Virus record (IMG/VR): IMGVR_UViG_2808606498_000012 | Strand: one strand, 5' to 3' | Origin: an uncultured virus (IMG/VR IMGVR_UViG_2808606498_000012) | Taxonomy: Duplodnaviria; Heunggongvirae; Uroviricota; Caudoviricetes | DNA length: 64,000 nt | Part shown: piece after piece, positions 1,860-17,076 of the stretch | How the letters are laid out: every line of letters starts with the position of its first letter | Numbering within the stretch: the stretch's first letter is position 1 | Made by a program: the position numbers and the translations under genes | Notes under the pieces: generated by a model | The model's database searches: none | Told to the model about the DNA's origin: nothing | Seen by the model: the letters and a program-made list of their open reading frames with translations, nothing else

Positions 1860-2003
1860 GGATTCAATCTTGGCGATTCCCGCCAACTCCCAAACACCCC
1901 CGAAAACGCCGCCTGTACGCGGGTTTTGGGGGTAACGGCGTTCTTGCCGCCTCCCAGTGCCCCTCACATAATCCACCCATCAATTGTGGGTAGAAACGTG
2001 GGT

Positions 2004-3239
2004 ATGGCATCTTCCAGACAGATTCACCGCTTGAACGCCCTGCGCGTCGCCAAAGAAGTGGCGCCCGGCTACCACGCCGACGGCGGCGGCCTGTATCTCC
2101 AGATTTCGACGAGCGGGTCGCGCTCATGGATTTTTCGTTACTCCCTGGCGAAGCGGGCGCGGGAGATGGGCCTGGGTCCGCTGTCGGCGATCTCGCTGGC
2201 CGAGGCCCGCGCGCAGGCCGCCCACTGCCGCAAGCTGCTTGCCACCGGCATCGACCCGATCGAGAGTCGCAAGGAACGCGATCGCGCTGCCCAGGCCGCC
2301 CCTGACGGGTTGCTATTCCGCGACGCCGCCCGAGACTACATCAATGCCCACCGGGACAGCTGGAGGAACGCCAAGCACGCCCAGCAGTGGGAAAACACCC
2401 TTGAGACCTACGCCTACCCGGTCATCGGCGATGTGGACGTGCGCGACATCGACACGGGCATGGTCGTGCGCGTACTGCAACCCATCTGGATGAAGAAGGC
2501 GGAGACGGCCAGCCGCGTACGCGGGCGCATTGAGTGTGTGCTCGATGCCGCCAAGGTCCTTGGCAAGCGCAGCGGCGAGAACCCGGCGCTCTGGCGCGGC
2601 CACCTGGACAAGCTTCTGCCGAAACGCGATCGCGCCAAGAAGGTGAAACACCATCCCGCCCTGCCCTGGGCGGACATCCCCGGCTTCATGCCGGAACTTG
2701 CGGAACGCGCAGCCCCGGCGGCCCGCGTGCTGCACCTCCTCATCCTCACCTGTGTGCGCACAACCGAGGCACTGGAGGCCAAGCCGGAAGAGTTCGACCT
2801 GGAGCGGCGTATCTGGATCGTGCCGCCCGACCGGATGAAGATGGAAAAGGAGCTGCGCGTGCCGCTGAGCGAGCCGGCGGTGCAGATCGTGAAAGAAGCG
2901 CTGAAGAAGGCCGACGGCTACCTGTTCCCCGGCCAGAAGAAAGGCAAGCCGCTATCGAACATGGCCATGCTGAACATGCTCGACCGCATGGGCTACGAAG
3001 GGATCACCGTGCACGGCTTCCGGTCGACGTTCCGCGACTGGGTGGCCGAGTGCACCGAATACCCAGACTCGCTCGCCGAGATGGCGCTGGCGCACGCAGT
3101 GGAAAGCAAGGTGGAAGGCGCCTACCGCCGGGGGGACATGCTTGAGCGGCGGCGCCGGATGATGGAAGACTGGGCCCGCTATTGCAGCGGGCAAACGGGT
3201 GTAGTGGTGCCGCTCAAGCGAGAGGCTTCAGCGGCGTGA
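2004..3239 (+). CDS. int: P4-like tyrosine integrase
   Basis: Arm-binding N-terminus (DGGGLYLQISTSGSRSWIFRY), catalytic R..K..HGFR..LAH..Y; directly downstream of tRNA; tandem GTGGGTA repeats just before the ATG. Confidence 0.95.
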   Translation: MASSRQIHRLNALRVAKEVAPGYHADGGGLYLQISTSGSRSWIFRYSLAKRAREMGLGPLSAISLAEARAQAAHCRKLLATGIDPIESRKERDRAAQAAPDGLLFRDAARDYINAHRDSWRNAKHAQQWENTLETYAYPVIGDVDVRDIDTGMVVRVLQPIWMKKAETASRVRGRIECVLDAAKVLGKRSGENPALWRGHLDKLLPKRDRAKKVKHHPALPWADIPGFMPELAERAAPAARVLHLLILTCVRTTEALEAKPEEFDLERRIWIVPPDRMKMEKELRVPLSEPAVQIVKEALKKADGYLFPGQKKGKPLSNMAMLNMLDRMGYEGITVHGFRSTFRDWVAECTEYPDSLAEMALAHAVESKVEGAYRRGDMLERRRRMMEDWARYCSGQTGVVVPLKREASAA

Positions 3240-3429
3240 CGCCCGGCTTTGGTATTGGCCTGCCGGCCTTCATGGCAAGCCAGGCGTCGATGTCTTCGTC
3301 CAGCCAGGCGGTACGGTTGCCGCCGAGCGAGAACGGCTTGGGAAACTCGCCCTTGGTGATCATACGATAGATCGTAGATTGGCCGAGGGAAACCTTCTCG
3401 GCGACTTGCTTGATGTTGATGGCTTTCAT
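3214..3429 (-). CDS. alpA: AlpA-family regulator / recombination directionality factor
   Basis: MKAINIKQVAEKVSLGQSTIYRMITKGEFPKPFSLGGNRTAW; convergent on integrase; ATGA overlap with primase stop. Confidence 0.9.
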   Translation of the reverse strand: MKAINIKQVAEKVSLGQSTIYRMITKGEFPKPFSLGGNRTAWLDEDIDAWLAMKAGRPIPKPGVTPLKPLA

Positions 3430-6131
3430 GCGGCGCTTCCGTTGTTGTTGCGTTGCTTTGTTGATCCTGACTCGAACACCCAGCACTTGACCGTCTCCGG
3501 CCGCTTGGGCAGGTGCAGGTGTTCGCGGTTGTGATAGGCATTGATGGCGCTGTTGACGGCGCGGATGTCCACAAACTTGCGCTGGCGCGAGGTCTTCAGC
3601 ACGCGCTTGAGATCCTCGATGGGTGGCAGCTCGATACGCCGCTCGCCTGCGGCCTGTGCCATGTGCTGCAGGTTGATTGCAACCAGGCCGGCCCCGCGCG
3701 CGTGGTTGAGGATCGGCCGATCGTCGTCGGCCGACTCGATGAAGTCGTAGACCTCCCAAAACTGTTGGACATGCTTGTGGTCCGCGCTGATGGCCTGCTG
3801 ACGCGCGGCGACCATGCGCCCCAGTTCGGCCAAGCCGGCGGCGTGCTGCTCGTCGGTCAGTGGCAAGACCAGGCGCAGGGCATCGACCATCGCCATGATC
3901 TGGGCGTGGTTCTTCGCAAGGCGCACCGTTTTCACATCAGCGCGCGCTAACAGGGCGTTCTCGTGCTGAGACACGCGGGCGTCGAAGGTCTCCAGCACTT
4001 GCTTCTCCGCCATCACGGCCGCCAGAAGAAAACCGGACACCTCCTCGATGGCGATGCGCTCCAGAGCCTCGGCGGCGGCGCGCGTTGCCGGCGTCTGCGC
4101 AGACCGGTCGCAGTAGATGTGCACGATGCGCTGAAGCACCGCATCGCTCGCGCTCACTTCCGCGTTCTGGCTGATGACGATGGCGCCCCTGAAAGGGGGT
4201 TCGTAGGTTTCGTTCCCGCCATTCTTGACGCCACGTGCGCGGGTGCTGCGGCCGTTGTAGGCCGTCTTCAGTTCGTCCCAGTCGAAGCCGCGCTGCTTGG
4301 CCCCCTCCTCGCCCCGGTCTGCCTCGATCAGCACCACCGGAAGGTTGGACACCTGCGCGAAGTTCCGCGCGCGCGCCGCCAGGGACGACTTGCTGGGGTC
4401 GAAGCCCTCGTAATCGCGTCGGCCGCACAGCTTCCAGAGAAATTCAATCAGCGTAGTCTTACCGGCCCCAGGCTCGCCGACCAGCTCCAGGAATGGATAG
4501 CTCTTGTGGGACTGGCGGATCTGCTCCGCGAATAGGCTCCCGAACCAAAAGGCGAGCGCCACCAAGCCCTTCGCGCCGAAGGCTTGCCACAACAGCGGCA
4601 GCCAGTCGGCCGGTGCCGCCTTGCCATCAGCGTTGAGAGTCAGGGTAGCGGACTGGCTGATCGTCTTGATCGCCAGCTTGCCGATGTCGAAAAAATCCTC
4701 GTCATTGAGGCGGTACAGCCGGCCGTCCTTGACGGCGACATCGCCGTAGACGTAGCAGCCGTGCTCTTTGCTGTAGCCCATGTAATCGATGGTCTGCACG
4801 GTCGGGATGCGCGCGAGCTGGCGTGCGAGGTAGCCGTCGAGCTGGGTGCCCGTGCCGGTATACATGGCACCCGGCGCCACGCCCAGCAGGCGCTTCTTGA
4901 ACTCGCTACTGCTGGCGATCTGCGCACTGGTGAAGGTCGCCTTGATCGGCTCGCCATCGTGCGGAAAGGCCACGCGGAAGTAGTACCAGGACTCGTCGGT
5001 TTGCGGGCTGGCCTGGTAGTAGAGCGCGGTGGGCTGACAGTTGGCGACCATCTGCACCACGCCGGCGCGCAGCACGGCGTGCTCGCGCACTTCGCCGTCG
5101 GGCATGTCCGGGTGGGCTTCGCGCACCGCGGCAGTTTCGCGCTGGAAGGCGTCCAGCTCCAGCTTGAACCAGTACGACCGTTGCCGGTAGTCGAACGGGA
5201 ATTGCGCGTCGCCCGTGCGGTGGTAGATCAGGCGGGCCTTCTCGGATGGGCTGGCAGCGGTGAACAGGTCGCCCAGATAGCGATATTCCTCCACGTGTTG
5301 CGGCGACAGCCGGTCACGTAGATGCAGCTCGTTCCAATCCATTTTGACCTTGCCCATCTGCTTGGGCAGCGCGGCGGAGGCGGCCCAACCGTCTGCCCTG
5401 GCGCGCTCGATGTGCTGGGCCATGTAACGGCGCCCCGCACGGTCATCGTCGAGTGCCCAGACAAGACGCGGGCGAGACCGACCGGTAGCCGCGCACTGCT
5501 CTGCCAAAGCGGCCAGCGCAGCGCGCGGATAGTTGACGCACGAAAGCAAGGCTGCGGCGGCGATACCGTGATGCAGGAGCGCGATCGCATCGAAGATGCC
5601 CTCCACCAGCCACAGTTCGCCGGCCTCGGATGACAGGTTGGGCGGCTGCCACCAGGTGCCGCCATACTGCCCGCAGAAGGTGGCCTTACGGTCGCCGAAC
5701 CGTTCAGGCTGGTCGATGATGCGCTCCCAGTACGTTCCGGCAGCCAGCGGGAAGCGTACTGTCGCGCTGCCAATCTTCAGTTCGTGGCTGTAGTAGCTCT
5801 CCTGCACGTACCAGCCGGCGATGCGTGCCAGATCAAAGCCACGGGCGTCGCGCAGGTAGGCATCCGCAGCGGCGTTGGGCGTTTCTGGCGAACGCACATA
5901 GCGGTCGCTCCACGAAGCGAACAGCTCGGGATATAGCTCTTTGACGTGCAGCTCGGACGCACATTTGTTGAGGCGGTTGCAGCGGACGACCCAGGGGGTG
6001 GCGGAGAAGGCCCACAGCGAGCGCTTGCCGCAGGACGGGCATTGCCCACCCTCCAGCTTGTTGTTGCGCTCCTTGAAATCGTAGTCGCGCAACAGGCGGA
6101 AAACGATGTCGGCGGCAAGGGGTGCGTTCAT
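3426..6131 (-). CDS. Zn-finger/Toprim primase-helicase replication protein (901 aa)
   Basis: CPSC..CNRLNKC zinc finger, Toprim VEGIFDA and DDDRAG, Walker A GEPGAGKT. Confidence 0.9.
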   Translation of the reverse strand: MNAPLAADIVFRLLRDYDFKERNNKLEGGQCPSCGKRSLWAFSATPWVVRCNRLNKCASELHVKELYPELFASWSDRYVRSPETPNAAADAYLRDARGFDLARIAGWYVQESYYSHELKIGSATVRFPLAAGTYWERIIDQPERFGDRKATFCGQYGGTWWQPPNLSSEAGELWLVEGIFDAIALLHHGIAAAALLSCVNYPRAALAALAEQCAATGRSRPRLVWALDDDRAGRRYMAQHIERARADGWAASAALPKQMGKVKMDWNELHLRDRLSPQHVEEYRYLGDLFTAASPSEKARLIYHRTGDAQFPFDYRQRSYWFKLELDAFQRETAAVREAHPDMPDGEVREHAVLRAGVVQMVANCQPTALYYQASPQTDESWYYFRVAFPHDGEPIKATFTSAQIASSSEFKKRLLGVAPGAMYTGTGTQLDGYLARQLARIPTVQTIDYMGYSKEHGCYVYGDVAVKDGRLYRLNDEDFFDIGKLAIKTISQSATLTLNADGKAAPADWLPLLWQAFGAKGLVALAFWFGSLFAEQIRQSHKSYPFLELVGEPGAGKTTLIEFLWKLCGRRDYEGFDPSKSSLAARARNFAQVSNLPVVLIEADRGEEGAKQRGFDWDELKTAYNGRSTRARGVKNGGNETYEPPFRGAIVISQNAEVSASDAVLQRIVHIYCDRSAQTPATRAAAEALERIAIEEVSGFLLAAVMAEKQVLETFDARVSQHENALLARADVKTVRLAKNHAQIMAMVDALRLVLPLTDEQHAAGLAELGRMVAARQQAISADHKHVQQFWEVYDFIESADDDRPILNHARGAGLVAINLQHMAQAAGERRIELPPIEDLKRVLKTSRQRKFVDIRAVNSAINAYHNREHLHLPKRPETVKCWVFESGSTKQRNNNGSAA

Positions 6132-6163
6132 TTTGCGGCGTATTGATGTTCTATACGTGAGAG

Positions 6164-6376
6164 TCAGTCGTCCAAGTCGCCGGCGGCGCGGCGCTTGAGG
6201 TCGACGGTGGGTGGATTGCTCGAGCGCGGGCGCCGGCGGAACTTGGGCGCCAGCGCACTTGCGGCCGCGGTGACTGCCGCCCGCAGTTGGGGCGGCATGG
6301 CCTCGTAGGGAGTGGTCAGACGCAGAAAGCGGTGAGCCCACCGCACGTCCGATTCGGTGACGGCGTGTTTAGCCAT
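6164..6376 (-). CDS. Small phage early protein
   Basis: Coupled ORF in early operon; C-terminus VDLKRRAAGDLDD conserved at 17436-17490. Confidence 0.7.
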   Translation of the reverse strand: MAKHAVTESDVRWAHRFLRLTTPYEAMPPQLRAAVTAAASALAPKFRRRPRSSNPPTVDLKRRAAGDLDD

Positions 6377-7293: not shown

Positions 7294-7316
7294 AAGAGGA
7301 TTAGGGGGCTACGCCG

Positions 7317-7565
7317 TCAGCCGGGCAGCAGGTCGAGCTGGCGCGGGTTTCCGGGCAGCAAGCGGGCGCGGCCGGCGGGGAGGAAAGCCTTCGGGTTCGG
7401 CTTCATGCTCGGCGCGATGGTGTTGACAGCGGAGAGAATGGCCCGACAGGTGTAGGCGCATTCCACGTCGGGGCACTGGAAATACAGCTCGCGCGACAGC
7501 AGCGACAACTCGCGGCTGGTGCGGATGTGCATGCGAGCGGCGCAATGCGGGCACGTCATTTTCAT
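7317..7565 (-). CDS. ogr: Ogr/Delta-family zinc-finger late-gene activator
   Basis: CPHC..IRTSR..RELYFQCPDVECAYT, the Ogr C-x2-C-x22-C-x4-C pattern. Confidence 0.92.
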   Translation of the reverse strand: MKMTCPHCAARMHIRTSRELSLLSRELYFQCPDVECAYTCRAILSAVNTIAPSMKPNPKAFLPAGRARLLPGNPRQLDLLPG

Positions 7566-7756
7566 TGCTTGATCTCCAGGGGAACTACAAGCCGCAGGGA
7601 GCGGCGCTTACCGGTCATACGTTCGGCGGTGTTTCTAAGGGATGTCTTCACGAGCCATTCAGCGGCCTGTTGAGTGGAGGCAAGGCCTTGCTGTTGGCGC
7701 ACCTGCTCCAACACCTGCAGCTCCTCTTCGGTGATACACAGCTCAATCTCCGACAT
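7562..7756 (-). CDS. Small phage protein, possibly DNA-binding
   Basis: 64-aa ORF coupled to ogr. Confidence 0.65.
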   Translation of the reverse strand: MSEIELCITEEELQVLEQVRQQQGLASTQQAAEWLVKTSLRNTAERMTGKRRSLRLVVPLEIKQ

Positions 7757-7784
7757 CGTTTCAGCGGCTACTTGGCGTCTTCAG

Positions 7785-7976
7785 TTAAGCGCTGCGCGGC
7801 TCTACAGTGGAATCACCGGCGCACAGTTGCGTTGCTTCCTTGAGCAAAACGCGACGGGCGAGCGCCGCAGGTTGCTCACCAACAAGGTTGGCCAGCGAGA
7901 TAAAAAAGGCGAACTCGTAGTCATCAAGTCGGATGGTGATGCGGTGGTCGCGCACCTTCTTCGGATCGGGATACAT
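7785..7976 (-). CDS. Small phage protein, ribbon-helix-helix-like
   Basis: MYPDPKKVRDHRITIRLDDYE, beta-strand then helices. Confidence 0.65.
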   Translation of the reverse strand: MYPDPKKVRDHRITIRLDDYEFAFFISLANLVGEQPAALARRVLLKEATQLCAGDSTVEPRSA

Positions 7977-8002
7977 GGAGGTCTGGCGTGGTGTAAGTGC
8001 GG

Positions 8003-8200
8003 TCAGGTGGCGCTGGACGAACGGCTATCTCGGTCGGCCATGCCCTGAACAATGAGGTGGCGGGCCATGTTGGACAGCGTACGACCCTCCTTCTGGGCCT
8101 GCGCTTTCAGCTTTGCCAAGTGCTCGGGCTCCAGGTTCACCAGCACGCGCGAGCGGGCACCAGTTGGACAGCGCTCCCGCGGAACATCAGCAGTAGTCAT
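8003..8200 (-). CDS. Arc/CopG ribbon-helix-helix regulator (Cro-equivalent position)
   Basis: RVLVNLEPEHLAKLKAQAQKEGRTLSNMARHLIVQG; first gene of early operon, divergent from repressor. Confidence 0.75.
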   Translation of the reverse strand: MTTADVPRERCPTGARSRVLVNLEPEHLAKLKAQAQKEGRTLSNMARHLIVQGMADRDSRSSSAT

Positions 8201-8237
8201 GGTGATATTCTCAGTGAGTACATTGGAATCACACGCA

Positions 8238-8265
8238 ATTATGCACACGAATGTGTGCATGTCAA
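8238..8265 (-). promoter_or_regulatory. Early (lytic) promoter with overlapping palindromic operator
   Basis: Minus strand TTGACA-N16-CATAAT; ATGCACAC-GAAT-GTGTGCAT inverted repeat at 8241-8260. Confidence 0.75.
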
Positions 8266-8717
8266 CAGAATTGGACACACAAACGTCAACCATTGGGGGC
8301 CGGCTGCGCGAGGAACGTAAGCGGCTAGGTCATAGCCAATCCCAGTTCGCAGAGCTGGCTGGCGTCCACAAGAATGCGCAAGGCAACTATGAAAGCGACC
8401 TACGCAGGCCTGACACGGACTATCTGGTGCAGATAGCGCAGGCTGGTGTGGACGTGCCCTACGTGTTGTTCGGCGAGCATTCCAGCGCGAGCTTGGCTCC
8501 GGATGAGGCCATGCTGCTGCATGGGTGGCGCCGGCTGGATAAGCGTGCCCGCGCAGGCGTGCTGGCGCTCATGGGTGGACTGGAAGAGGTAGACGAACCG
8601 GTCCCCGCGACGAAGACGCGGGCTTCCGGCCGCGCCCAGGTCATCAACGGCGGTTCGAACAACGTGCAAATCGGCAGCGTCAAGACGGGACGACGCAAGG
8701 CCGCTAAGACGCAGTGA
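8259..8717 (+). CDS. XRE-family prophage repressor (alternative start 8241)
   Basis: IGGRLREERKRLGHSQSQFAELAGVHKNAQGNYESDLRRPD HTH; no S24 peptidase domain; NVQIG tail. Confidence 0.9.
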   Translation: MSTELDTQTSTIGGRLREERKRLGHSQSQFAELAGVHKNAQGNYESDLRRPDTDYLVQIAQAGVDVPYVLFGEHSSASLAPDEAMLLHGWRRLDKRARAGVLALMGGLEEVDEPVPATKTRASGRAQVINGGSNNVQIGSVKTGRRKAAKTQ

Positions 8718-8779
8718 GTGCCTTGGGGCGCTACAAGCTGCCGGAATCCCCCAGATGCCGGGGAAAGGGAGGGGATGCT

Positions 8780-9130
8780 GTGGCGGCCCCGACGTGCAAG
8801 GAATGTGGGACCGAGCTTGCCAGCCGGGTAAAGTCGTGCCCGCATTGCGGCGCGCCAAGTCCAGGCGTTACGCCTCAACGTGCGCTGGTGTGGCTCGTCG
8901 CCTTTTTTACGGCTGGAGGCCTTGTGGCCGGCGTTGCAAGCTGCTGGCCTGACATAGCTGAAGCTGCGTCGTCAGCCTGGAGACTGCACGTCGTTACGAG
9001 TCTTTTTGGCGCCGGTGTGTGGGGCTCGCAGGGTGCGCTGGCTCCGCCTGCATCTGAGACCAATAGGCGTGCCAATCCGCTACCGTCGTCCACAACGCAG
9101 CCCGCAATTGAGAATTGCTCAGGGCGATAA
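8780..9130 (+). CDS. Zinc-ribbon membrane protein downstream of repressor
   Basis: CKECG..CPHCG then hydrophobic helix; GGGAGG RBS before GTG. Confidence 0.65.
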   Translation: MAAPTCKECGTELASRVKSCPHCGAPSPGVTPQRALVWLVAFFTAGGLVAGVASCWPDIAEAASSAWRLHVVTSLFGAGVWGSQGALAPPASETNRRANPLPSSTTQPAIENCSGR

Positions 9131-9581
9131 GCGATCGCGCCCCGAACCGATCTTCGCAGTAAGCGAGTGTCGAAGCCTGGAGGCCTTTGCGAACGCGCCA
9201 CATCCGCATGATCTGCCGGACCATGGTCGAGCGCGGCAGGTTGTCGCCACGTGCGCACGCTAGCCACCCGTCTAGGTATGAACGCGCCTCCCAGTATTGC
9301 TCGTGCTTCAGTTCGGAGCTGTCGTCCAAGCCGCGCCCGTTGAGATGGGCGCACAGGGCATCCCACACGGTGCCGGCGTTCACCAATCCTTCTTCTGCCA
9401 ATTCGATCTGCAGGGCAATGTGTGTCAGTTCGGCGCGCTGTTCTGGGGTCATGCGTTCATTTGCCGTTGATGGCGGCGCATGGCATTGAGACCCCCGGCT
9501 CGGATCGCAGATCACAACTTTGCCAATCTGGACGTTGCCGTGACCTTCGGTGATGCTCTGGTGAATGGTCTTGCCCTGCAC
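8994..9581 (-). CDS. 195-aa protein with N-terminal NVQIG motif and ORF6C/antirepressor-like helical domain
   Basis: GGAGG RBS 5 nt before GTG; TPEQRAEL..VWDAL..SELKHEQYWEARSYLDGW resembles the ORF6C pattern (by eye). Confidence 0.65.
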   Translation of the reverse strand: MQGKTIHQSITEGHGNVQIGKVVICDPSRGSQCHAPPSTANERMTPEQRAELTHIALQIELAEEGLVNAGTVWDALCAHLNGRGLDDSSELKHEQYWEARSYLDGWLACARGDNLPRSTMVRQIMRMWRVRKGLQASTLAYCEDRFGARSLIALSNSQLRAALWTTVADWHAYWSQMQAEPAHPASPTHRRQKDS

Positions 9582-9842
9582 CCTAACCTCCCCCCGCAAA
9601 GCGGTGCAGCAGCACGCCAACGCCATGGCAATTCACGTCGGCGGGAAAGGAAAGATATCTGTAAGTTTTAAAGCGGTGCAGGATAGACTGAGTTTTGCCC
9701 GACCCCAAGGGCAAATTTCGGTTTTGAATAATGACTTTCTTCAACATTCGACTTAAACCGACCGCACAATTGCGGCCGGAATGCAAGTCTTGATGCATCA
9801 ACTAGTTGCCTACAATCCCTTCCGCGGAGGGGATGAGATTGC

Positions 9843-10592
9843 CTAGGCTGACAAAGGCTCGCACGCCCGCAAACGTTCGCGCGCCACTTCGTGATAGGCC
9901 GTCTCCAATTCGCAACCGATCCAGGAGTGGCCCGCCTCCTTGGCTGCCACCAGGAACGTGCCCGCCCCGGCGAACGGGTCGCACACGACGCTCCCCGGCG
10001 GCACCAGGCGCACGACTTCACGCGCGAGCGCCAGCGGTTTCTCGGTCATGTGTCGCTTGGGCAGCGGCAGGCGTTCGTTGAAGACGCCAGGCAGGTAGAC
10101 CGGATTGCCGGCCGGCACCGCGCCCTTCGTCGCCCACACCATGAACTCGGCCTGCGCCGAGAAGCCGCCCGAACGAGGCCGCGCGCGGCCGACCGTCTTG
10201 TCCCACACCGCCACGCCGCGCCAGATGTAGCCCGCCCCCTGAATGGCATCGGTCAGACTCGGCAGTTGGCGCCAGTCGGTGAAGCACACCAGGTAACCAC
10301 CCTCCTTGGTCGCACGGTAGGCCTCGGCCAGCCAGGTCATGCACCAGAACGTCCAGGACCGTTGGTCCTTGTTGTCATGGCCGAAAGTGGCGTACTGAGT
10401 TCGCACACCAGAATTGATGTATTTCGTCCCAGGCGCCTGCGTGCGTACGCCGGCATGCAAGCCGCCCGACGAATACGGCGGGTCCGTGAAGAACAGGTCG
10501 ACCGATGCATCGGGCAGGTCGCGCAACACGTCCAGGGCGTTGCTACGGTGCAGGTGGTTGAGCTGCGCGGCAGCGCGAGCGTTCGTGCTCAT
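9843..10592 (-). CDS. Orphan N6-adenine/N4-cytosine DNA methyltransferase (beta class)
   Basis: DPPY near N-terminus, HMTEKP, DPFAGAGT near C-terminus. Confidence 0.93.
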   Translation of the reverse strand: MSTNARAAAQLNHLHRSNALDVLRDLPDASVDLFFTDPPYSSGGLHAGVRTQAPGTKYINSGVRTQYATFGHDNKDQRSWTFWCMTWLAEAYRATKEGGYLVCFTDWRQLPSLTDAIQGAGYIWRGVAVWDKTVGRARPRSGGFSAQAEFMVWATKGAVPAGNPVYLPGVFNERLPLPKRHMTEKPLALAREVVRLVPPGSVVCDPFAGAGTFLVAAKEAGHSWIGCELETAYHEVARERLRACEPLSA

Positions 10593-10752
10593 GGGTGGGG
10601 TCTCCACTGTACGAAGCTCGGCGGCTCTCTGGTGCGGGGCGCTCGGCCCTCAAAACGTTCATGGTCCCGCAACGCGGGCATTTGATGGCAAGGCGCACGT
10701 ATTCACCTGCGCCGAGTTTGCGGTGGCACGCACCGCAACGGATGTCCTGCAT
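10543..10752 (-). CDS. com: Mu Com-like zinc-finger regulator
   Basis: MQDIRCGACHRKL..IKCPRCGTMN; overlaps MTase start. Confidence 0.88.
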   Translation of the reverse strand: MQDIRCGACHRKLGAGEYVRLAIKCPRCGTMNVLRAERPAPESRRASYSGDPTHEHERSRCRAAQPPAP

Positions 10753-10785
10753 GAATTGCTGTTCCTGCTGTGCTAGGATGCCGGC

Positions 10786-10886
10786 GCCTCGCGAGGTGGC
10801 GCGGCCCTGGCCGGTCTGGCAGGTCCGATCTGCTAGAGCGGGTCGTGGTGGGTGCTCCAACACCCGCCACGTCGCCGCGTCTTTCT
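10786..10886 (+). ncRNA. Candidate structured small RNA antisense to the com leader
   Basis: Extended -10 TGcTAGGAT at 10771-10779; closing stem plus 10-bp and 11-bp hairpins with G-U pairs valid only on + strand. Confidence 0.4.
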
Positions 10887-11064: not shown

Positions 11065-11912
11065 TCACCCGGCGGCCGTACCCGATTCTTCCAACTTCTC
11101 CGGCTGGATCTCCAGCTCCAGTGCGCTGGTGTAGCCGCGATCGTTCAGGCTGTGCGTTACCTTGCCGACGCTCCACTGCGTATTGTCGATGTCCTTCTTC
11201 CACCCGCTCACGCTCGCATGCAGTGAGGGGAACAGGTCCGGCCGGCCGCGCGCCAGCGTGATCGAGAAGGTAGCGACACCGCGCTGAATCCTGCGCCACG
11301 CGGCGCGCGCGCCGCGCTCGGCGTTGGCCTTCGATGCGTAGGTGTGGCGCAGTACCTTCACGTTATCCGGGTTGGGCTGCGCGGCCACCGTCGCGGCCTT
11401 CTTCCTCTTCTTCACCTTGCCGTCCCGCTTCTCTTTCGTGACGGTGGCGTTGGAGGCGTCGACCACCACTTCGCCGCGCGTGCCGGCGCGGGTGTCCTGG
11501 TAGTAGGCCTTCACGCCGTTGTAGTTCTCCCGGTCAGCCACCAGGAAGGTATGCGTGTCGCCTGCCTCCCGGGTGATGCTGACCTTCGGCAAGGCGAGGC
11601 CGGATCCGCTGGTCGGCTCGCCGGCCGGGATGAACAGCAGTGTCCCGTTCTTCACGGTGGCGATGGCATCGAAATCGCGCGCCAGGCGCGTCAGGAAGTT
11701 TGCGTCCGACTCGCCGGTCTGGTCCACGTGTGCGATGACCTTGCCGGCCAGCTTCTTGCTGACCATGGACGTGAGCTTGTTGCGGGTGGCAATGGCCTGC
11801 ACGATGGCGCCGACGGTCTTGCCGGCGTAGGAGCTGTCCCGCCTGGTGATGAGGCCGCCGTCCAGCTCCACACTACGCGCGCGGATCGTGAGGCGATCCG
11901 GCGGGCCGGTGT
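11065..11912 (-). CDS. P2 late control/baseplate hub protein D, C-terminal part (copy A)
   Basis: HVDQTGESDANFLTRLA..ATVKNGTLLF; truncated by gap. Confidence 0.9.
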
Positions 11913-12012
11913 NNNNNNNNNNNNNNNNNNNNNNNNNNNNNNNNNNNNNNNNNNNNNNNNNNNNNNNNNNNNNNNNNNNNNNNNNNNNNNNNNNNNNNNN
12001 NNNNNNNNNNNN

Positions 12013-12643
12013 CCTCGGCGGGGCGGATGCGCTCGAGTTCGCGGTCGAGCTGCTCAGCGCTGCATTCCATCAGCCGCAGTTCGCCGCCGACGAGGTTGAG
12101 CCAGGCCAGGCCGACCAGCGGCGCGGCGCCGCGCTTGCCCGGGATCTGCGCGATGGCGAGCAGGTGGTTGTTGACCTTGTCGGACAGCAGCGCCGCGTCG
12201 GTCAGCGTGCCGGGCGTGACCACGCGCACGACCTTGCGCTCGACCGGTCCCTTGGTGGTGGCCGGGTCGCCGATCTGCTCGCAGATGGCGACCGATTCGC
12301 CCAGCTTGACCAGCTTGGCCAGGTATTGCTCGACTGCGTGGAACGGCACGCCGGCCATGCGGATCGGCTGGCCGTTGGTGGTGCCGCGCGAGGTCAGCGT
12401 GATGTCGAGCAGACGTGCGGCCTTTTCGGCGTCTTCGAAGAACAGTTCGTAGAAGTCGCCCATCCGATAGAAGACAAGCGTATGCGGATGCGCCGATTTC
12501 AGCTTGAGGTACTGCTGCATCATCGGCGTGTGCTTGCTAACGTCTTGTCCCGAAACTATCTGTTCTACTTCGTTTTTCACCTGCAATTCCTTTGCTGTAC
12601 TGGCTTCGTAGCCGATCGTGCCTTCTTTGATCGCGCCGTCCAC
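12013..12643 (-). CDS. mutS: DNA mismatch repair protein MutS, 5' part (start uncertain, probably element-supplied)
   Basis: [54 protein letters not shown]. Confidence 0.96.
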
Positions 12644-12675: not shown

Positions 12676-12982
12676 GGCGTAGCTTTTTGTCGTATGATGC
12701 TGAAAAACCTACGCCGCGCTCTTGGGTTGAGTATCAGCAAAACCTACGCCAAAAAAACCTACGCCATGTACTTCAATGCCCGCGCTGCCAAGCTGCTCAA
12801 GCCTGGCGAACATATGACCATCGACGGATGCCCTGGGCTGCGCTTTGAATGTAGCGCTTCACGCCGAAGCTGGATCTACCGCTACAAGTCGCCTGTGGAC
12901 GGAAAAATGCGCCAAGTCAAGCTTGGCGCGTGGCCGGCTATGTCATTGGCCGGCGCCGTCGTCGAGTGGGAAAAGCTACGCC
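12676..12982. repeat. AAAA(C/G)CTACGCC repeats, putative integrase arm sites
   Basis: Direct copies at 12704, 12739, 12754, 12971; inverted copy at 12676-12687. Confidence 0.8.
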
Positions 12983-14049
12983 AAGCGCGCGATACCGGTC
13001 GCGATGTCGCCGTCGAGAAGCGTTCTACTCGAACGCTGGCTCGGGCAACGACCAATGGAGAAATTGTACCGGAGCGTGTTCCGTACACCGTGCGCAGGCT
13101 ATGCGAGGACTATTTGGTTGGTCACATCGAGCGCAATCGCACATTCAAGGGCGCAAAGGAAGTGCGTCGAATGTTCGACACAATGCTTGAGTCGATAGCC
13201 GATGTGCTGCCGCAGAATGTGACTCGCGCCATGGCTTTCGATCTCTTGAACGCTTTTGCGCATATTCCGGTCCAGGCTGGCAAGCTTCGTACCGAACTGG
13301 GGGCCTCCTGGGACTACGGCCACGACTCCGGCCGGTTGGCCGAGGATGTGCCGAACTGGTGGCGTCAGATTATGCGCGGGCGCCTGCGCAGTGTCGGCAA
13401 GCGTATTGAGGGTAAGCCGATCGGAAAAGTGAAGCGCGTCCTGTCCGACCAAGAAACAGGGGAACTGATTCGCTGGCTGCCGAATTTCTCGGCTTTGGTC
13501 GACGACGTATGCACGATGTATCTGTGGACCTGCACGCGTGGTGATGACATCGTCGAGATTCGAGTCGAGGAGATTACCGAAGAGGAGGATGGTCTTTGGT
13601 GGACCATCCCGAAGGCAAAGACCAAGATTGCCAAGAACGACAACGCACCGGATCATCGAGTGCCGCTGGTGGGCCGTGCCGAGGTGGTGGTGCGGCGGCG
13701 CATGGCAAATGCCAAGGATGGTTGGCTGTTTCCGTCAAGGGCGGGAGGTCCAACTGAGCAGAAGGCCATTCAGAGTGCTGTCTGGAGTCGCCAGCCGTAC
13801 TGCAAGTCCCGTCCCGAGTTGGAGCGATCGCGCCTGCCAGTGACCCACTGGGCGCCGCATGATCTGCGGCGTACCGGGCGCACGATGCTAACTGCATTGG
13901 GCTGCCCGACAGACGTGGCCGAATCGATCCTGGGCCACATGCTGCCGGGTGTGGAGGGAGTCTACAACCGCCACACGTATGATCGTGAAAGGCGGGAGTG
14001 GTTGACGCGGCTCGGCGCGCATTTGGAGGCGCTCGCGGCCGCCAGGTAA
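12766..14049 (+). CDS. int: Tyrosine integrase (mutS-associated)
   Basis: GCPGLRF..RRSWIYRYKSP arm domain; catalytic R..K..HDLRR..LGH..Y. Confidence 0.94.
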   Translation: MYFNARAAKLLKPGEHMTIDGCPGLRFECSASRRSWIYRYKSPVDGKMRQVKLGAWPAMSLAGAVVEWEKLRQARDTGRDVAVEKRSTRTLARATTNGEIVPERVPYTVRRLCEDYLVGHIERNRTFKGAKEVRRMFDTMLESIADVLPQNVTRAMAFDLLNAFAHIPVQAGKLRTELGASWDYGHDSGRLAEDVPNWWRQIMRGRLRSVGKRIEGKPIGKVKRVLSDQETGELIRWLPNFSALVDDVCTMYLWTCTRGDDIVEIRVEEITEEEDGLWWTIPKAKTKIAKNDNAPDHRVPLVGRAEVVVRRRMANAKDGWLFPSRAGGPTEQKAIQSAVWSRQPYCKSRPELERSRLPVTHWAPHDLRRTGRTMLTALGCPTDVAESILGHMLPGVEGVYNRHTYDRERREWLTRLGAHLEALAAAR

Positions 14050-14336: not shown

Positions 14337-17021
14337 TTACGCGTTGGCTCGCTTTCCAGACTCGAACACCCAGCACTTGACGGTCTCCGGCCGTTTGGGC
14401 GCGTGCAGGTGTTCGCGGTTGTGATAGGCACTGATGGCGCTGTTGACAGCGCGGATATCCACAAACTTGCGCTGACGCGAGGTTTTCAGCACGCGCTTCA
14501 AGTCCTCAATGGTGGGCAGCTCGATACGCCGCTCGCCGGCCGCCTGAGCCATGTGCTGAAGGTTGATCGCGATCAAGCCGGCCCCGCGTGAGTGGTTGAG
14601 GATGGGGCGGTCGTCGTCGGCCGACTCGATGAAGTCGTAGACCTCCCAAAACTGCTGGACGTGCTTGTGATCCGCGCTGATGGCTTGCTGACGCGCCGCA
14701 GCCATGCGGCCCAGCTCGGCCAGGCCGGCGGCGTGCTGCGCATCGGTCAGCGGCAAGACAAGCCGCAGGGCATCGACCATCGCCATGATTTGTGCATGGT
14801 TCTTTGCCAAACGCACCGTTTTCACTTCGGGGCGCTCCAGCAGAAATTGTTCGTGCTGCGACACGCAGGCATTGAATGCCTCCAGCACGCGGTTTTCTGC
14901 CATGACGGCCGCAAGGAGGAAGGCAGACACGTCCTCGATGGCGATGCGCTCCAACGCTTCTGCGGCGGCGCGCGTGGCGGGCGTCTGCGCAGAGCGGTCG
15001 CAGTAGATATGCACGATGCGCTGAAGCACCGCGTCGCTCGCGCTGACCTCGGCGTTCTGGCTTATGACGATGGCGCCGCGGAAAGGCGGCTCGTAGGTTT
15101 CGTTCCCACCGTTCTTGACCCCGCGCGCGCGGGTGCTGCGGCCGTTGTAGGCAGTCTTGAGCTCGTCCCAATCGAAGCCGCGCTGCTTGGCTCCCTCCTC
15201 ACCCCGGTCCGCCTCGATCAGCACCACAGGCAGATTGGACACCTGCGCGAAGTTCCGCGCGCGCGCCGCCAGGGACGATTTGCTCGGGTCGAAGCCCTCG
15301 TAATCACGTCGGCCGCACAGCTTCCACAGGAATTCAATCAGCGTGGTCTTGCCGGCGCCAGGTTCGCCCACCAGCTCCAGGAATGGATAGCTTTTGTGTG
15401 CCGAACGGATCTGCTCCGCAAACAAGCTGCCGAACCAGAAGGCCAGAGCGACGAGCCCCTTGGGTCCGAAAGCCAGCCACAGCAGGGCGAGCCAGTCGGC
15501 GGACATGGCTTTGACATCGGTGTTGAGGCTCAGGGTGGCGGACTGGCTGATGGTCTTGATGGCAAGTTTGCCGATGTCGAAGAAGTCTTCATCATTGAGG
15601 CGGTAAAGCCGACCGTCCTTGACCGCCACGTCGCCGTAGACGTAGCAGCCGTATTCCTTGCTGTATCCCACGTAATCGATGGTCTGCACCGTGGGGATGC
15701 GTGCGAGCTGGCGCGCGAGGTAGCCGTCGAGCTGGGCGCCCGTGCCGGTATACATGGCGCCCGGCGCCACGCCCAGCAGGCGCTTTTTGAACTCGCTGCT
15801 GCTGGCGATCTGCGCACTGGTGAAGGTCGCTTTGATCGGCTCGCCATCATGCGGAAAGGCCACGCGGAAGTAGTACCAGGACTCGTCGGTTTGCGGGCTG
15901 GCCTGGTAGTAGAGCGCGGTGGGCTGACAGTTGGCGATCATCTGCACCACGCCGGCGCGCAGCACGGCGTGCTCGCGCACTTCGTCGTCGGGCATGTCGG
16001 GGTGTGCTTCGCGCACCGCGGCGGTTTCGCGCTGGAAGGCGTCCAGTTCCAGCTTGAACCAGTACAGCCGGTTCCGATAGTCGAACGGGAATTGTGCGTC
16101 GCCGCCTCGGTGATAGGTAAGGCGGGCCTTCTCGGATGGGCTGGCAGCGGTGAACAAGTCGCCCAGGTGGCGGTATTCCTCCACGTGTTGCGGCGATAGC
16201 CGGTCACGCAGGTGCAGCTCGTTCCAATCCAATTTGAGTTTGCTTGCCTGCTTGGGTAGCGCTGCGGCCGCGGTCCAGCCGTCCGCACGGGCACGCTCGA
16301 TGTGCTGGGCCATGTAGCGACGGCCGGCGCGGTCATCGTCGAGCGCCCATACAAGTCGCGAACGTGCTCGGCCGGCAGCCGCGCATTGCTCCGCCAAAGC
16401 GGCCAGCGCGGCACGCGGGTAGTTGACGCACGATAGCAAGGCCACGGCCGCGATGCCATGGTGCAGAAGCGCGATCGCGTCAAAGATGCCCTCCACCAGC
16501 CACAGTTCGCCGGCCTCGGATGGCAGGTTGGGCGGTTGCCACCAGGTGCCGCCATATTGCCCGTGGAACGTGGCCTTGCGGTCGCCGAACCGCTCGGGCT
16601 GGTCGATGATGCGCTCCCAGTACGCTCCCGCAGCAAGGGGAAAGCGCACCGTAGCGCTGCCAATCTTCAGTTCGTGGCTGTAGTAGCTCTCCTGCACATA
16701 CCAGCCGGCAATGCGTGCCAGATCGAAGCCGCGGGCGTCGCGCAGGTAGGCATCCGCAGCGGCGTTGGGGGCGTCGGGCGAACGCACATAGCGGTCGCTC
16801 CACGACGCGAACAGCTCGGGGTACAGCTCTTTGACGTGGGACTCGGACGCGCATTTGTTGAGGCGGTTGCAGCGGACGACCCAGGGAGCGTCGGAGAAGG
16901 TCCACAGCGTGCGCTTGCCGCAGGATGGGCAGACACCCGCCTCCAGCTTGTTGTTGCGCTCCTTGAAGTCGTAGTCGCGCAGCAGGCGGGACACGATGTC
17001 GGCGGTGAGGGTTGGGTTCAT
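14337..17021 (-). CDS. Zn-finger/Toprim primase-helicase, copy B (894 aa)
   Basis: Colinear and highly similar to 3426-6131. Confidence 0.9.
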   Translation of the reverse strand: MNPTLTADIVSRLLRDYDFKERNNKLEAGVCPSCGKRTLWTFSDAPWVVRCNRLNKCASESHVKELYPELFASWSDRYVRSPDAPNAAADAYLRDARGFDLARIAGWYVQESYYSHELKIGSATVRFPLAAGAYWERIIDQPERFGDRKATFHGQYGGTWWQPPNLPSEAGELWLVEGIFDAIALLHHGIAAVALLSCVNYPRAALAALAEQCAAAGRARSRLVWALDDDRAGRRYMAQHIERARADGWTAAAALPKQASKLKLDWNELHLRDRLSPQHVEEYRHLGDLFTAASPSEKARLTYHRGGDAQFPFDYRNRLYWFKLELDAFQRETAAVREAHPDMPDDEVREHAVLRAGVVQMIANCQPTALYYQASPQTDESWYYFRVAFPHDGEPIKATFTSAQIASSSEFKKRLLGVAPGAMYTGTGAQLDGYLARQLARIPTVQTIDYVGYSKEYGCYVYGDVAVKDGRLYRLNDEDFFDIGKLAIKTISQSATLSLNTDVKAMSADWLALLWLAFGPKGLVALAFWFGSLFAEQIRSAHKSYPFLELVGEPGAGKTTLIEFLWKLCGRRDYEGFDPSKSSLAARARNFAQVSNLPVVLIEADRGEEGAKQRGFDWDELKTAYNGRSTRARGVKNGGNETYEPPFRGAIVISQNAEVSASDAVLQRIVHIYCDRSAQTPATRAAAEALERIAIEDVSAFLLAAVMAENRVLEAFNACVSQHEQFLLERPEVKTVRLAKNHAQIMAMVDALRLVLPLTDAQHAAGLAELGRMAAARQQAISADHKHVQQFWEVYDFIESADDDRPILNHSRGAGLIAINLQHMAQAAGERRIELPTIEDLKRVLKTSRQRKFVDIRAVNSAISAYHNREHLHAPKRPETVKCWVFESGKRANA

Positions 17022-17076
17022 CCCTTGCCCCCCAATATGGAAGTGGAGGGAACGTTCCTGATTTCGCAAAGCCGCA

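What the first reader, a model, noticed from the sequence alone, without database searches (positions are those of the whole stretch)
8637..9581. Matched RHIM-like motifs on the prophage repressor tail and a neighbouring antirepressor-like protein: possible amyloid-type lysogeny switch
Seen: the repressor ends in QVINGGSNNVQIGSV (8637-8681) after a low-complexity linker. The convergent 195-aa ORF begins with QSITEGHGNVQIGKV (NVQIG at 9522-9536). Nine of 15 residues are identical, and four of the shared residues use different codons (GTG/GTC, CAA/CAG, ATC/ATT, GTC/GTT), which points to selection on the peptide rather than a recent DNA repeat. The proteins share no other visible similarity, and the repressor has no S24 autocleavage domain. 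Established: (I/V)Q(I/V)G is the RHIM core, and fungal and bacterial amyloid signalling uses one motif at the C-terminus of one protein and the N-terminus of an adjacent gene's product. Inference: the second protein, whose body resembles ORF6C antirepressor-associated domains, may co-assemble with and sequester or modulate the repressor, giving RecA-independent control. I do not know of this being described for a phage switch.
Basis: partly seen in the sequence, partly recalled or inferred. Interest (0 to 1): 0.88.

Follow-up and report, generated by a model that had tools for sequence, protein, structure and literature searches.

The report
Repressor tail matches neighbouring protein's head
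A prophage repressor ends in the same short glycine/asparagine/glutamine-rich peptide that begins a neighbouring protein, and the two copies change together across related phages, which suggests the two proteins touch through this peptide in a way not yet described for the control of lysogeny.

Summary
In detail: coordinates, 9 of 15 identities and 4 of 9 differing codons all hold. The element is the immunity region of a P2-like (phiRSA1-like) Ralstonia prophage. The repressor has an XRE HTH, a helical hairpin and a disordered tail, and no S24 domain.

The match is not a local oddity. In this repressor family the tail peptide matches the first residues of a nearby gene's product in at least six motif classes, and the classes change together. 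A permutation over 7 class representatives put the true pairing as the single best of 5040. Profiles built from the partner heads of four classes retrieve only repressor-tail sequences of that class, or of loci left unclassed in the script, as top hits among 9,527 ORF C-termini.

Partner bodies differ: ORF6C/Flk_N-like soluble proteins, zinc-ribbon proteins, multi-TM proteins, and TM proteins with a periplasmic Cys domain. The head peptide is the one feature shared by all partners read. Composition resembles published bacterial amyloid signalling motifs.

A direct, homotypic tail-head contact is the best reading. Amyloid templating and an antirepressor role remain untested. The Pfam RHIM model does not match. 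No paper describing this was found in four literature searches. This scan noted the same phenomenon before on other DNA (four notes).

The parts
8003..8203 (-). Arc/ribbon-helix-helix early gene, divergent from the repressor (the position of Cox/Apl in P2-like switches)
   Evidence: Pfam RHH_5 E 1.6e-8; PHROG 3431 'Arc-like repressor' E 9.7e-9
8238..8265 (-). Sigma-70-like promoter (TTGACA-16-CATAAT, 11 of 12) reading towards the early genes; it overlaps the start of the repressor gene
   Evidence: consensus match only
8259..8717 (+). Immunity repressor ORF (152 aa from ATG 8259). The true start is uncertain: the closest database entry is 172 aa.
   Evidence: HTH_3 E 2.3e-8; NCBIfam RstR/DicA-like, below cut-off
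8292..8471 (+). XRE helix-turn-helix domain (residues 12-71)
   Evidence: Pfam residues 16-62; AF2 helices 12-71 with pLDDT about 90
8499..8582 (+). C-terminal helical hairpin (residues 81-108), conserved across the family; a dimerisation role is inferred
   Evidence: AF2 H81-92 and H95-108; conservation
8583..8636 (+). Variable linker (residues 109-126), predicted disordered
   Evidence: pLDDT below 50 for residues 109-152; variable
8637..8681 (+). Tail motif (residues 127-141) with core N-V-Q-I-G
   Evidence: the only invariant columns of 17 C-termini lie here
8682..8714 (+). Basic end of the repressor (11 residues); a K/R-rich end follows the motif in nearly all tail classes
8714..9130 (+). 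Zinc-ribbon plus transmembrane ORF. Its start overlaps the repressor stop (GTGA) and its 3' part overlaps the partner's 3' end on the other strand. It carries no motif; any role in the module is unknown.
   Evidence: Pfam Zn_Ribbon_1 E 5.9e-6; a homologue at the same place in L023
8994..9581 (-). Partner ORF, 195 aa from GTG 9581 (GGAGG 5 nt upstream)
   Evidence: PHROG 5825, function unknown, E 6.8e-12
9516..9560 (-). Head motif (residues 8-22) with core N-V-Q-I-G at 9522-9536
   Evidence: invariant K, Q, I, G, G, N, V, I, G in 24 sequences; pLDDT below 50 for residues 1-24 and 29-38
9042..9449 (-). Helical body (residues 45-180): six helices in two three-helix bundles. The first bundle is ORF6C/Flk_N-like.
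   Evidence: AF2 pLDDT 84-97; hhalign 96% to P0086, which carries Pfam ORF6C; NCBIfam Flk N-terminal part E 1.7e-5
9582..9842 (.). Region upstream of the partner: a perfect 12-nt direct repeat (9598-9609 and 9670-9681), a terminator-like hairpin on the + strand (9694-9715), and no LexA box

Best explanation
The repressor and the 195-aa protein form one instance of a two-gene module found in P2-like (Peduoviridae-type) prophages of Burkholderiales. One protein is an XRE immunity repressor whose disordered C-terminal tail carries a 13-38-residue peptide rich in G, N, Q, V and I. The other is a partner whose disordered N-terminus carries the same peptide. Shown: the peptides match within each locus and differ between motif classes, while the partner's body is exchangeable. 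Inferred: the two peptides bind each other directly by like-on-like beta-strand stacking, as amyloid signalling motif pairs do. Through this contact the partner (an ORF6C/Flk_N-like protein here, usually a membrane-anchored protein elsewhere) captures or nucleates the repressor tail and so ties repressor activity to a cue sensed by the partner. That would give control of the lysogeny switch without RecA or S24 cleavage. Open questions: whether the assembly is a true templated amyloid or a small discrete beta-sheet, and whether the result is derepression, buffering or membrane tethering.
For: (1) Pairing. All 10 distinct genome loci with an intact partner hold a repressor of the family within 5 kb. 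So do 11 of 12 viral-contig loci and 12 of 20 metagenome loci (4 of the 8 without have short flanks).
(2) Co-variation. In genus g15 and in L052/L053 both peptides change together, from the N-V-Q-I-G type to a G-I-(T/I)-Q-V type. In all 11 Burkholderia-type loci the next gene begins with a peptide like the tail. In 16 further loci an unbiased ungapped scan puts the neighbouring gene's head first in 11 and second in 3; the 2 repressors without such a tail give nothing.
(3) Specificity. In a 20x20 Smith-Waterman matrix, own pairs score 27-59 against means of 22.6-26.9 for other classes. The own partner ranks first in 13 of 20. A permutation over 7 class representatives puts the true pairing as the single best of 5040. 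For classes A, B, D and F, the top hits of the head profiles among 9,527 ORF C-termini are repressor tails of that class or of loci left unclassed in the script (in class A also L013_10314_10574, a remnant of a second repressor C-terminus). For class C, all 11 own tails fall within the top 12.
(4) Partner bodies differ (soluble helical; ORF6C-like + TM + Cys domain; zinc ribbon + TM; multi-TM), so among the partners read the head peptide is the only shared feature. Of 13 distant representatives of the partner family, 12 also start with such a peptide, by my reading.
(5) Both peptides lie in regions with pLDDT below 50. They are enriched in G 2.5x, N 2.25x, I 2.1x, Q 1.9x and V 1.6x, and depleted in P 0.13x and L 0.14x. 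This matches the bias reported for BASS motifs (passage read).
(6) Motif classes differ among phages of one host genus (Ralstonia). This argues for pair-specific recognition rather than a host factor.
(7) The module occurs in cultured phages: KS5 gp11/gp12 and phiE202 gp21/gp22.
Against: There is no physical evidence of any kind, and the complex predictor was not on offer. The Pfam RHIM model gives no hit. The partner has no NTPase or other known oligomerising sensor domain, unlike NLR or Agp-type sensors. Aligned stretches are often shorter (13-23 residues) than the roughly 25 reported for BASS, and K is not depleted. Some pairs are weak: phiE202 scores 26 and RSY1 scores 21 by Smith-Waterman, and neither is the best ORF in its locus. 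In class E only 2 of 3 tails appear among weak hits, and class C E-values are 0.7-4.5. The module is dispensable: KL3 gp13, L079 and L070 lack the tail, and one lineage (L034, L036, L037, L039) keeps the partner with no repressor within 6 kb. In this window the genes are convergent, and in relatives they lie up to 5.2 kb apart, so they are not an operon. In the other classes the partner is co-transcribed with the repressor, which argues against a simple induced antirepressor.
Confidence: 0.55

Rival explanations
1. Shared third party or mimicry. The two peptides do not bind each other. Both fit the same site on something else: a protease or adaptor, a chaperone, or a groove on the repressor or on the partner's own body. 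In the last case the partner's head would act as a competitor or pseudo-ligand.
For: Identity-type co-variation is also expected if two ligands share one pocket. Both peptides are disordered short linear motifs. A basic run follows the tail in nearly all classes, as degrons and docking tags often have.
Against: No third co-varying gene is conserved in the loci; between the classes only the two genes are shared. Partner bodies are unrelated between classes, so a common groove in the partner is unlikely. Motif classes differ among phages of the same host genus, which argues against a host factor. A groove in the repressor's helical hairpin is not excluded.
Confidence: 0.2
2. Independent self-association. 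Each protein uses its peptide only to oligomerise with itself (repressor cooperativity, partner clustering). The likeness reflects common descent of the peptide by duplication, or occasional copying between neighbouring genes, without cross-talk.
For: Some tails carry two pseudo-repeats (class D), which could zip repressors together. In class F the two copies are nearly identical, 12 of 13 residues, as a recent copy would be.
Against: The likeness is kept while the classes diverge strongly, and it is kept across convergent genes up to 5.2 kb apart. In the window, 4 of 9 identical residues use different codons and no DNA repeat links the two sites. Independent self-association gives no reason for the two peptides to stay alike.
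Confidence: 0.12
3. Chance or compositional likeness of two low-complexity ends.
For: Taken alone the window match barely beats the best random ORF (35 against 32). Single E-values of head profiles against tails are 0.0004-4.5.
Against: Other classes have the same composition yet score only 22.6-26.9 on average. The true pairing is the single best of 5040, own-class tails crowd the top of 9,527 C-termini, and the motif columns are invariant.
Confidence: 0.02

Closest known systems
Amyloid signalling motif gene pairs: bacterial BASS1-10 in Bell/NLR pairs (bioRxiv 10.1101/2020.01.06.895854, passages and section 9 read) and BASS11 in E. coli Bab/Agp (bioRxiv 10.1101/2024.11.07.622273, abstract and sections 4 and 10 read); fungal HET-S/NWD2 as cited there
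   Same: One short motif sits at the C-terminus of one protein and at the N-terminus of a protein encoded nearby. It shows a G/N/Q/V/I-rich, P/L-poor composition, several motif families, exchangeable domains around the motif, pseudo-repeats in some C-terminal bearers, and a location in prophages (Bab/Agp).
   Different: The C-terminal bearer is a DNA-binding lysogeny repressor, not a membrane-targeting cell-death domain. The N-terminal bearer has no NLR, TPR or nuclease sensor part; it is a small ORF6C/Flk_N-like or membrane-anchored protein. The aligned motifs are often shorter. No fibril or prion data exist.
RHIM (RIP homotypic interaction motif) and the RHIM-like BASS3/PP motifs
   Same: The window's two peptides contain the core V-Q-I-G preceded by N. 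The papers give G-hydrophobic-Q-hydrophobic-G as the shared signature (passage).
   Different: The Pfam RHIM model does not match. Other classes of the same module have other cores (G-x-V-G-Q-x-V; A-V-N-I-G). The likeness is therefore to the motif type, not to the family.
Phage antirepressors (recalled, not from a call: Tum of 186, Ant of P22) and the ORF6C domain of Bro/KilA-N-type antirepressor-like proteins (Pfam PF10552)
   Same: A small phage protein encoded near the immunity region that could act on the repressor post-translationally. The partner's first helical bundle is ORF6C-like by a transitive profile link.
   Different: There is no LexA box, no sequence similarity to known antirepressors was found (Pfam, PHROGs, PADLOC, NCBIfam), and in most classes the partner is co-transcribed with the repressor and membrane-anchored. 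Recognition through a shared terminal peptide is not known for these proteins.
Flk, the membrane-anchored flagellar regulator of enterobacteria (NCBIfam NF007987; its biology is recalled, not from a call)
   Same: The N-terminal cytoplasmic part of Flk is similar to the partner's body (E 1.7e-5 for the window's protein, 8.5e-14 for relative P0088). Many partners, like Flk, end in a membrane anchor.
   Different: The score is far below the family cut-off (24 against 353 bits). The context is a prophage immunity region, not flagellar genes. Whether Flk has a matched-peptide partner was not examined.
Membrane sequestration of transcription regulators (recalled examples: Mlc by PtsG, anti-sigma factors)
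   Same: A possible outcome for the classes in which the partner is a membrane protein.
   Different: Those systems use folded domain contacts, not a shared terminal peptide.

Membership tests
Amyloid signalling motif (ASM/BASS-type) gene pair | The same short motif at the C-terminus of one protein and the N-terminus of a protein encoded nearby | tested here: met
   Window. Relatives and other classes.
Amyloid signalling motif (ASM/BASS-type) gene pair | Motif of about 25 residues, enriched in Q, N, G, V, I and depleted in K, P, L | tested here: inconclusive
   G 2.5x, N 2.25x, I 2.1x, Q 1.9x, V 1.6x, P 0.13x, L 0.14x, but K 1.5x. Aligned lengths are 13-38 residues, mostly 13-24.
Amyloid signalling motif (ASM/BASS-type) gene pair | The N-terminal bearer is a sensor that oligomerises (NLR/STAND, or TPR-GreA/B-C-PIN in Agp) | tested here: not met
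   No NTPase or repeat domain in any partner scanned (Pfam). The bodies are small helical or membrane proteins.
Amyloid signalling motif (ASM/BASS-type) gene pair | The C-terminal bearer is a cell-death or immune effector (Bell/HeLo, TIR, CHAT and others) | tested here: not met
   It is an HTH_3 repressor placed divergent from an Arc-like early gene.
Amyloid signalling motif (ASM/BASS-type) gene pair | The motif forms cross-beta fibrils and the N-terminal copy templates the C-terminal one | not testable with these tools
   Only indirect evidence: both peptides have pLDDT below 50 in the monomer models. The complex predictor was not on offer.
RHIM (Pfam PF12721) | Core (I/V)-Q-(I/V)-G | tested here: met
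   V-Q-I-G in both window proteins. All 17 class-A tails have N-V-Q followed by I, V or L and then G, S or A.
RHIM (Pfam PF12721) | Significant match to the family model | tested here: not met
   No RHIM hit at E up to 1 for either protein or at E up to 10 for 26 partner sequences. Short motifs are hard for this test.
ORF6C / Flk_N-like domain (partner body) | Match to Pfam ORF6C above the gathering score | tested here: inconclusive
   0 of 26 family members hit. Three of 4 Burkholderia-type partners hit below threshold, E 0.016-0.2. Relative P0086 hits at 32.6 bits against a cut-off of 22 and aligns with the family profile at hhalign probability 96%, E 3.9e-9. Atlas feature leads point to ORF6C/Flk_N clusters. 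NCBIfam Flk N-terminal part at E 1.7e-5, far below cut-off.
P2-type immunity switch repressor without autocleavage | HTH repressor divergent from a small early Cox/Apl/Arc-like gene with promoters between them; no S24 domain | tested here: met
   The same layout is annotated in KS5, KL3 and phiE202. DNA binding and immunity themselves were not tested.
SOS-controlled antirepressor (Tum type) | LexA box in front of the gene | tested here: not met
   No CTGT-N8-ACAG with up to 1 mismatch in 9582-9842.

The most novel reading that the evidence does not exclude
Temperate phages of this group run part of their lysogeny decision through a prion-like switch. A small sensor, often membrane-anchored, nucleates a cross-beta assembly with its N-terminal peptide. 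That assembly recruits and inactivates the repressor through the identical peptide on its tail, giving an all-or-none, self-propagating induction signal that does not depend on RecA. The motif classes would then be a second specificity code beside operator specificity, keeping co-resident prophages from cross-inducing one another.
Probability: 0.28. Interest if true: 0.93.

Novelty: new variant of a known kind. Interest (0 to 1): 0.82.

Why it matters
How P2-like phages without a cleavable repressor leave lysogeny is poorly understood for most of them. This module offers a concrete candidate that is widespread in the Burkholderiales prophages sampled here and can be tested: a peptide-coded link between the immunity repressor and a second protein that is often in the membrane.

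If the link is amyloid-like, amyloid signalling would extend from cell-death effectors to a transcription factor and to the lysis-lysogeny decision. It would also show that a 15-25-residue tag is enough to wire a regulator to a sensor.

If the link is a discrete contact, it is still a new class of repressor partner. In that case the motif classes would give a ready-made set of orthogonal interaction tags.

Tried and rejected

I stopped that step. Only the window's codons were checked, by hand, so selection at the peptide level is shown at the codon level for the window pair alone.

3. Fold of the partner: Foldseek against PDB found nothing at E up to 0.001. VIA-align wide gave at best Z 7.8 (Red-beta C-terminal domain, 61 residues) and Z 7.4 for Sak and NinB. 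This is below the level the tool calls meaningful for helical bundles, so I treat it as a lead only.

4. Fused 'all-in-one' forms: a search for longer relatives of the repressor found one protein, an HTH plus Peptidase_S24. The representative search with the partner profile found 19 proteins, none with an HTH. One of them, P0084, looks like a fusion artefact with an integrase piece. This is weak evidence that fused forms are rare.

5. PADLOC gave no hit for the partner, the zinc-ribbon ORF or three other partners.

6. LexA box: none in the partner's upstream region.

7. RNA. Contigs from one RNA-seq run (X2) cover 9114-9340. Contigs from two runs whose RNA status is a guess (X1, X8) cover 9195-9763 and 9571-9755. 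Contigs in RNA libraries do not prove transcription, and uncovered parts say nothing. I take this as no more than a weak hint that the partner region is expressed.

8. The ungapped 14-mer scan is noisy in GC-rich six-frame ORFs, with background best scores of 25-38, and it fails for class C, which needs gaps. I replaced it with Smith-Waterman and profile tests.

9. Operator sharing: no repeat links the Pe region with the partner's upstream region.

10. The search of earlier findings by sequence found nothing.
Full report
1. What is in the window

The region 8003-9626 is the immunity region of a P2-like prophage. The stretch 7300-10700 is 99.9% identical to predicted Ralstonia prophage records, and its left part is 90% identical to phage phiRSA1. 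The closest proteins carry Ralstonia pseudosolanacearum/solanacearum names.

An Arc/RHH gene (8003-8203, -) and an HTH_3 gene (8259-8717, +) diverge from a strong sigma-70-like promoter match. KS5, KL3 and phiE202 have the same annotated layout: an 'Arc-like repressor' gene next to the repressor gene.

The AF2 model of the repressor shows an HTH domain (residues 12-71) and two further helices (81-108). Residues 109-152 have pLDDT below 50. Pfam finds no S24 domain.

A zinc-ribbon/TM ORF follows (8714-9130, +). Then comes the convergent 195-aa ORF (8994-9581, -), which is co-directional with a DNA methylase gene (9843-10607) and a gpD tail gene fragment.

2. The observation

GTG 9581 has a GGAGG 5 nt upstream, and homologues start at the same place, so the peptide occupies residues 8-22 of the partner. 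No DNA repeat joins the two coding stretches.

3. Conservation and pairing

The partner family is small. It was found in 10 of 396 scored genomes of the family and in 3 of 29 genera, with 5 genomes not scored. Only 19 of 1.84 billion representative proteins match at E up to 0.001.

In 24 partner sequences the head columns K, Q, I, G, G, N, V, I, G are invariant. In 17 repressor C-termini the only invariant columns are Q, I, G, S, N, V, Q of the motif. This holds even in three repressors whose preceding region is not homologous.

Every one of the 10 distinct genome loci with an intact partner has a family repressor within 5 kb (L014 repeats L001). So do 11 of 12 viral-contig loci; the exception, L032, has under 4 kb of flank.

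Of 20 metagenome loci, 12 have the repressor. Four of the other eight have short flanks. The remaining four (L034, L036, L037, L039) are nearly the same DNA (L036 is 99% identical to L034). In L034 the partner borders DNA that I read as chromosomal ligase and helicase genes, a reading not tested against family models. Several metagenome loci are the same contigs as the viral ones, so these counts are not independent.

4. Co-variation

In genus g15 and in L052/L053 the repressor lies directly upstream on the same strand. There both peptides have changed together to an M-x-A-x-G-x-G-I-x-Q-V type.

I then followed repressors of the same family that carry other tails. In all 11 loci of the Burkholderia type, the gene starting 35-240 nt after the repressor begins with a peptide like the tail (Q-x-F-x-G-x-x-G-Q-x-V-x-G-D-V).

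In 16 more loci I compared each tail with all ORFs of its locus in an ungapped scan. The neighbouring gene's head came first in 11 loci and second in 3. The two repressors without such a tail (one S24-like, one helical) gave nothing.

In a 20x20 Smith-Waterman matrix, own pairs score 27-59 against other-class means of 22.6-26.9. The own partner ranks first against all partners of other classes in 13 of 20 pairs. With one representative for each of 7 classes, the true pairing is the single best of 5040 permutations.

I also built profiles from the partner heads and searched them against the C-terminal 60 residues of all 9,527 six-frame ORFs of all loci. For classes A, B, D and F the top hits are repressor tails of that class or of loci left unclassed in the script, at E 0.0004-0.15; class A's also include one remnant of a second repressor C-terminus in L013. 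For class C, all 11 own tails are within the top 12, but at E 0.7-4.5. Class E is weak, with 2 of 3 tails among hits of E 2-5. Classes C, E and G resemble one another, so I count about five clearly distinct motif types.

5. Weak or negative cases

The phiE202 gp21/gp22 and RSY1 ORF38/ORF37 pairs look alike by eye, but they score only 26 and 21 by Smith-Waterman and are not the best ORFs of their loci. RS-AB1 is like RSY1, and its annotated partner start appears too late. KL3 gp13 has no such tail.

6. What the partners are

The window's partner has a disordered head (residues 1-38) and six confident helices (residues 45-180). Pfam finds nothing for any of the 26 family members.

The family profile aligns with P0086 at hhalign probability 96%, and P0086 carries Pfam ORF6C above the cut-off. 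NCBIfam finds the N-terminal part of Flk at E 1.7e-5. Atlas features point to ORF6C/Flk_N clusters.

Other classes have other bodies, by my reading of the sequences and from weak Pfam hits:
- ORF6C-like domain, then a TM helix, then a small periplasmic Cys domain (Burkholderia type, L078);
- zinc ribbon plus TM helices (L069);
- multi-TM (L065, L066);
- a soluble helical protein (L076, L080).

Twelve of 13 distant representatives also begin with a G/N/Q/I/V-rich peptide. Two of them (P0085, P0088) begin with an N-R-V-(G/A)-G-R-D type head and end in a membrane anchor. That is the motif named in earlier scan notes on E. coli prophages.

7. Comparison with the known

Papers on bacterial amyloid signalling describe a motif of about 25 residues at the C-terminus of an effector and at the N-terminus of a sensor encoded next to it. 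The motif is enriched in Q, N, G, V, I and depleted in K, P, L. One family (BASS3) shares G-hydrophobic-Q-hydrophobic-G with RHIM. Bab/Agp shows that such a pair works in E. coli antiphage defence.

The matched stretches here have that composition except for K, and the window's core is V-Q-I-G. They differ in both bearers: a repressor instead of a death effector, and a small ORF6C-like or membrane protein instead of an NLR. The Pfam RHIM model does not match.

Four literature searches found no paper linking a phage repressor to such a motif. A term search in PMC12261475 found none of six terms (HTH, helix-turn-helix, transcription, repressor, phage, Proteobacteria), and one in PMC13506858 found no HTH, helix-turn-helix, prophage or lysogen; its three 'repressor' hits concern translational repressors. 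The KS5/KL3 genome paper (PMC3091744, passages read) lists gp11 as repressor and gp12 as membrane protein without comment. Subscription journals are not covered by these searches.

8. Mechanism

Shown: the two peptides are matched, co-varying, disordered and terminal, and the partner bodies are exchangeable.

Inferred: the two peptides make direct like-on-like contact. Among the partners read the peptide is the only thing they share, and the classes differ among phages of one host genus. Both points argue against a groove in the partner and against a host factor.

Further inferred, with less weight: the partner captures or nucleates the repressor in response to a cue. In most classes the partner is made together with the repressor and sits in the membrane, so it should be a conditional sensor or anchor rather than an induced antirepressor. 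In this window the partner is soluble, convergent and has its own upstream region without a LexA box. That region holds a perfect 12-nt direct repeat and a hairpin.

Contigs from RNA libraries cover parts of the partner gene and its upstream region. This is only a weak hint of expression.

9. Verdict

The finding is a new variant of a known kind (matched-motif signalling pairs) in a new setting, the lysogeny switch.

This scan reported the same phenomenon earlier on other genomes. I reached the generality independently before reading those notes. links the E. coli-type partners to this window's partner family.

Noticed in passing
window 1-57000: The window holds two phiRSA1-like gene sets in tandem. 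The first is integrase 1926-3239, primase 3426-6341 and a gpD fragment 11065-11871. The second is integrase 12694-14049, primase 14337-17069 and gpD 19343-20152. Many late genes appear twice or in pieces (sheath, tube-like 'head closure', tail terminator). Only the first set has the tail/head module.
   Followed up: partly
window 11873-12643: An ORF on the - strand that I read as the N-terminal part of MutS lies between the gpD fragment and the second integrase. It is interrupted by a run of N (withheld bases), so the junction cannot be read.
   Followed up: no
window 8714-9130: A zinc-ribbon plus TM ORF whose GTG overlaps the repressor's stop and whose 3' part overlaps the partner gene on the other strand. 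It is conserved at the same place in L023. Similar zinc-ribbon/TM genes lie in the cargo between partner and repressor in L013. Some partners of other classes contain a zinc ribbon and a TM helix themselves.
   Followed up: partly
window 9598-9609 and 9670-9681; 9694-9715: A perfect 12-nt direct repeat spaced 72 nt, and a terminator-like hairpin on the + strand, both in the partner's upstream region. They could be an operator pair and the end of the repressor transcript.
   Followed up: no
L013 10314-10574 (-): A remnant of a second repressor C-terminus with the same motif lies in the cargo region between partner and repressor.
   Followed up: no
L034-L039: In the lineage where the partner has lost its repressor, 5 of 6 loci carry N to D in the core (G-N-G-D-V-Q-I-G). 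This is anecdotal but fits relaxed constraint.
   Followed up: no
gpD genes of many loci (e.g. L001 1841-2980) and window 11065-11871: The tail protein D has a stretch (R-A-G-x-R-G-E-V-V-x-D-A-S-N) that scores 35-38 against the stretch just before the class-A tail motif. Probably chance.
   Followed up: no
window 10543-10863 (-): A small ORF with two CxxC pairs just upstream of the methylase gene. By recall it resembles the Com-type zinc finger that precedes phage methylase genes. Not tested.
   Followed up: no
L082 3060-3452 (Ralstonia phage RS-AB1): The annotated 68-aa gene after the repressor seems to start too late. The open frame extends upstream to an M followed by a peptide faintly like the repressor tail.
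   Followed up: partly
window 8994-9581 and proteins P0088, P0086: The partner family shares its helical body with the N-terminal part of the flagellar regulator Flk. Flk may descend from, or be related to, this prophage protein family.
   Followed up: no
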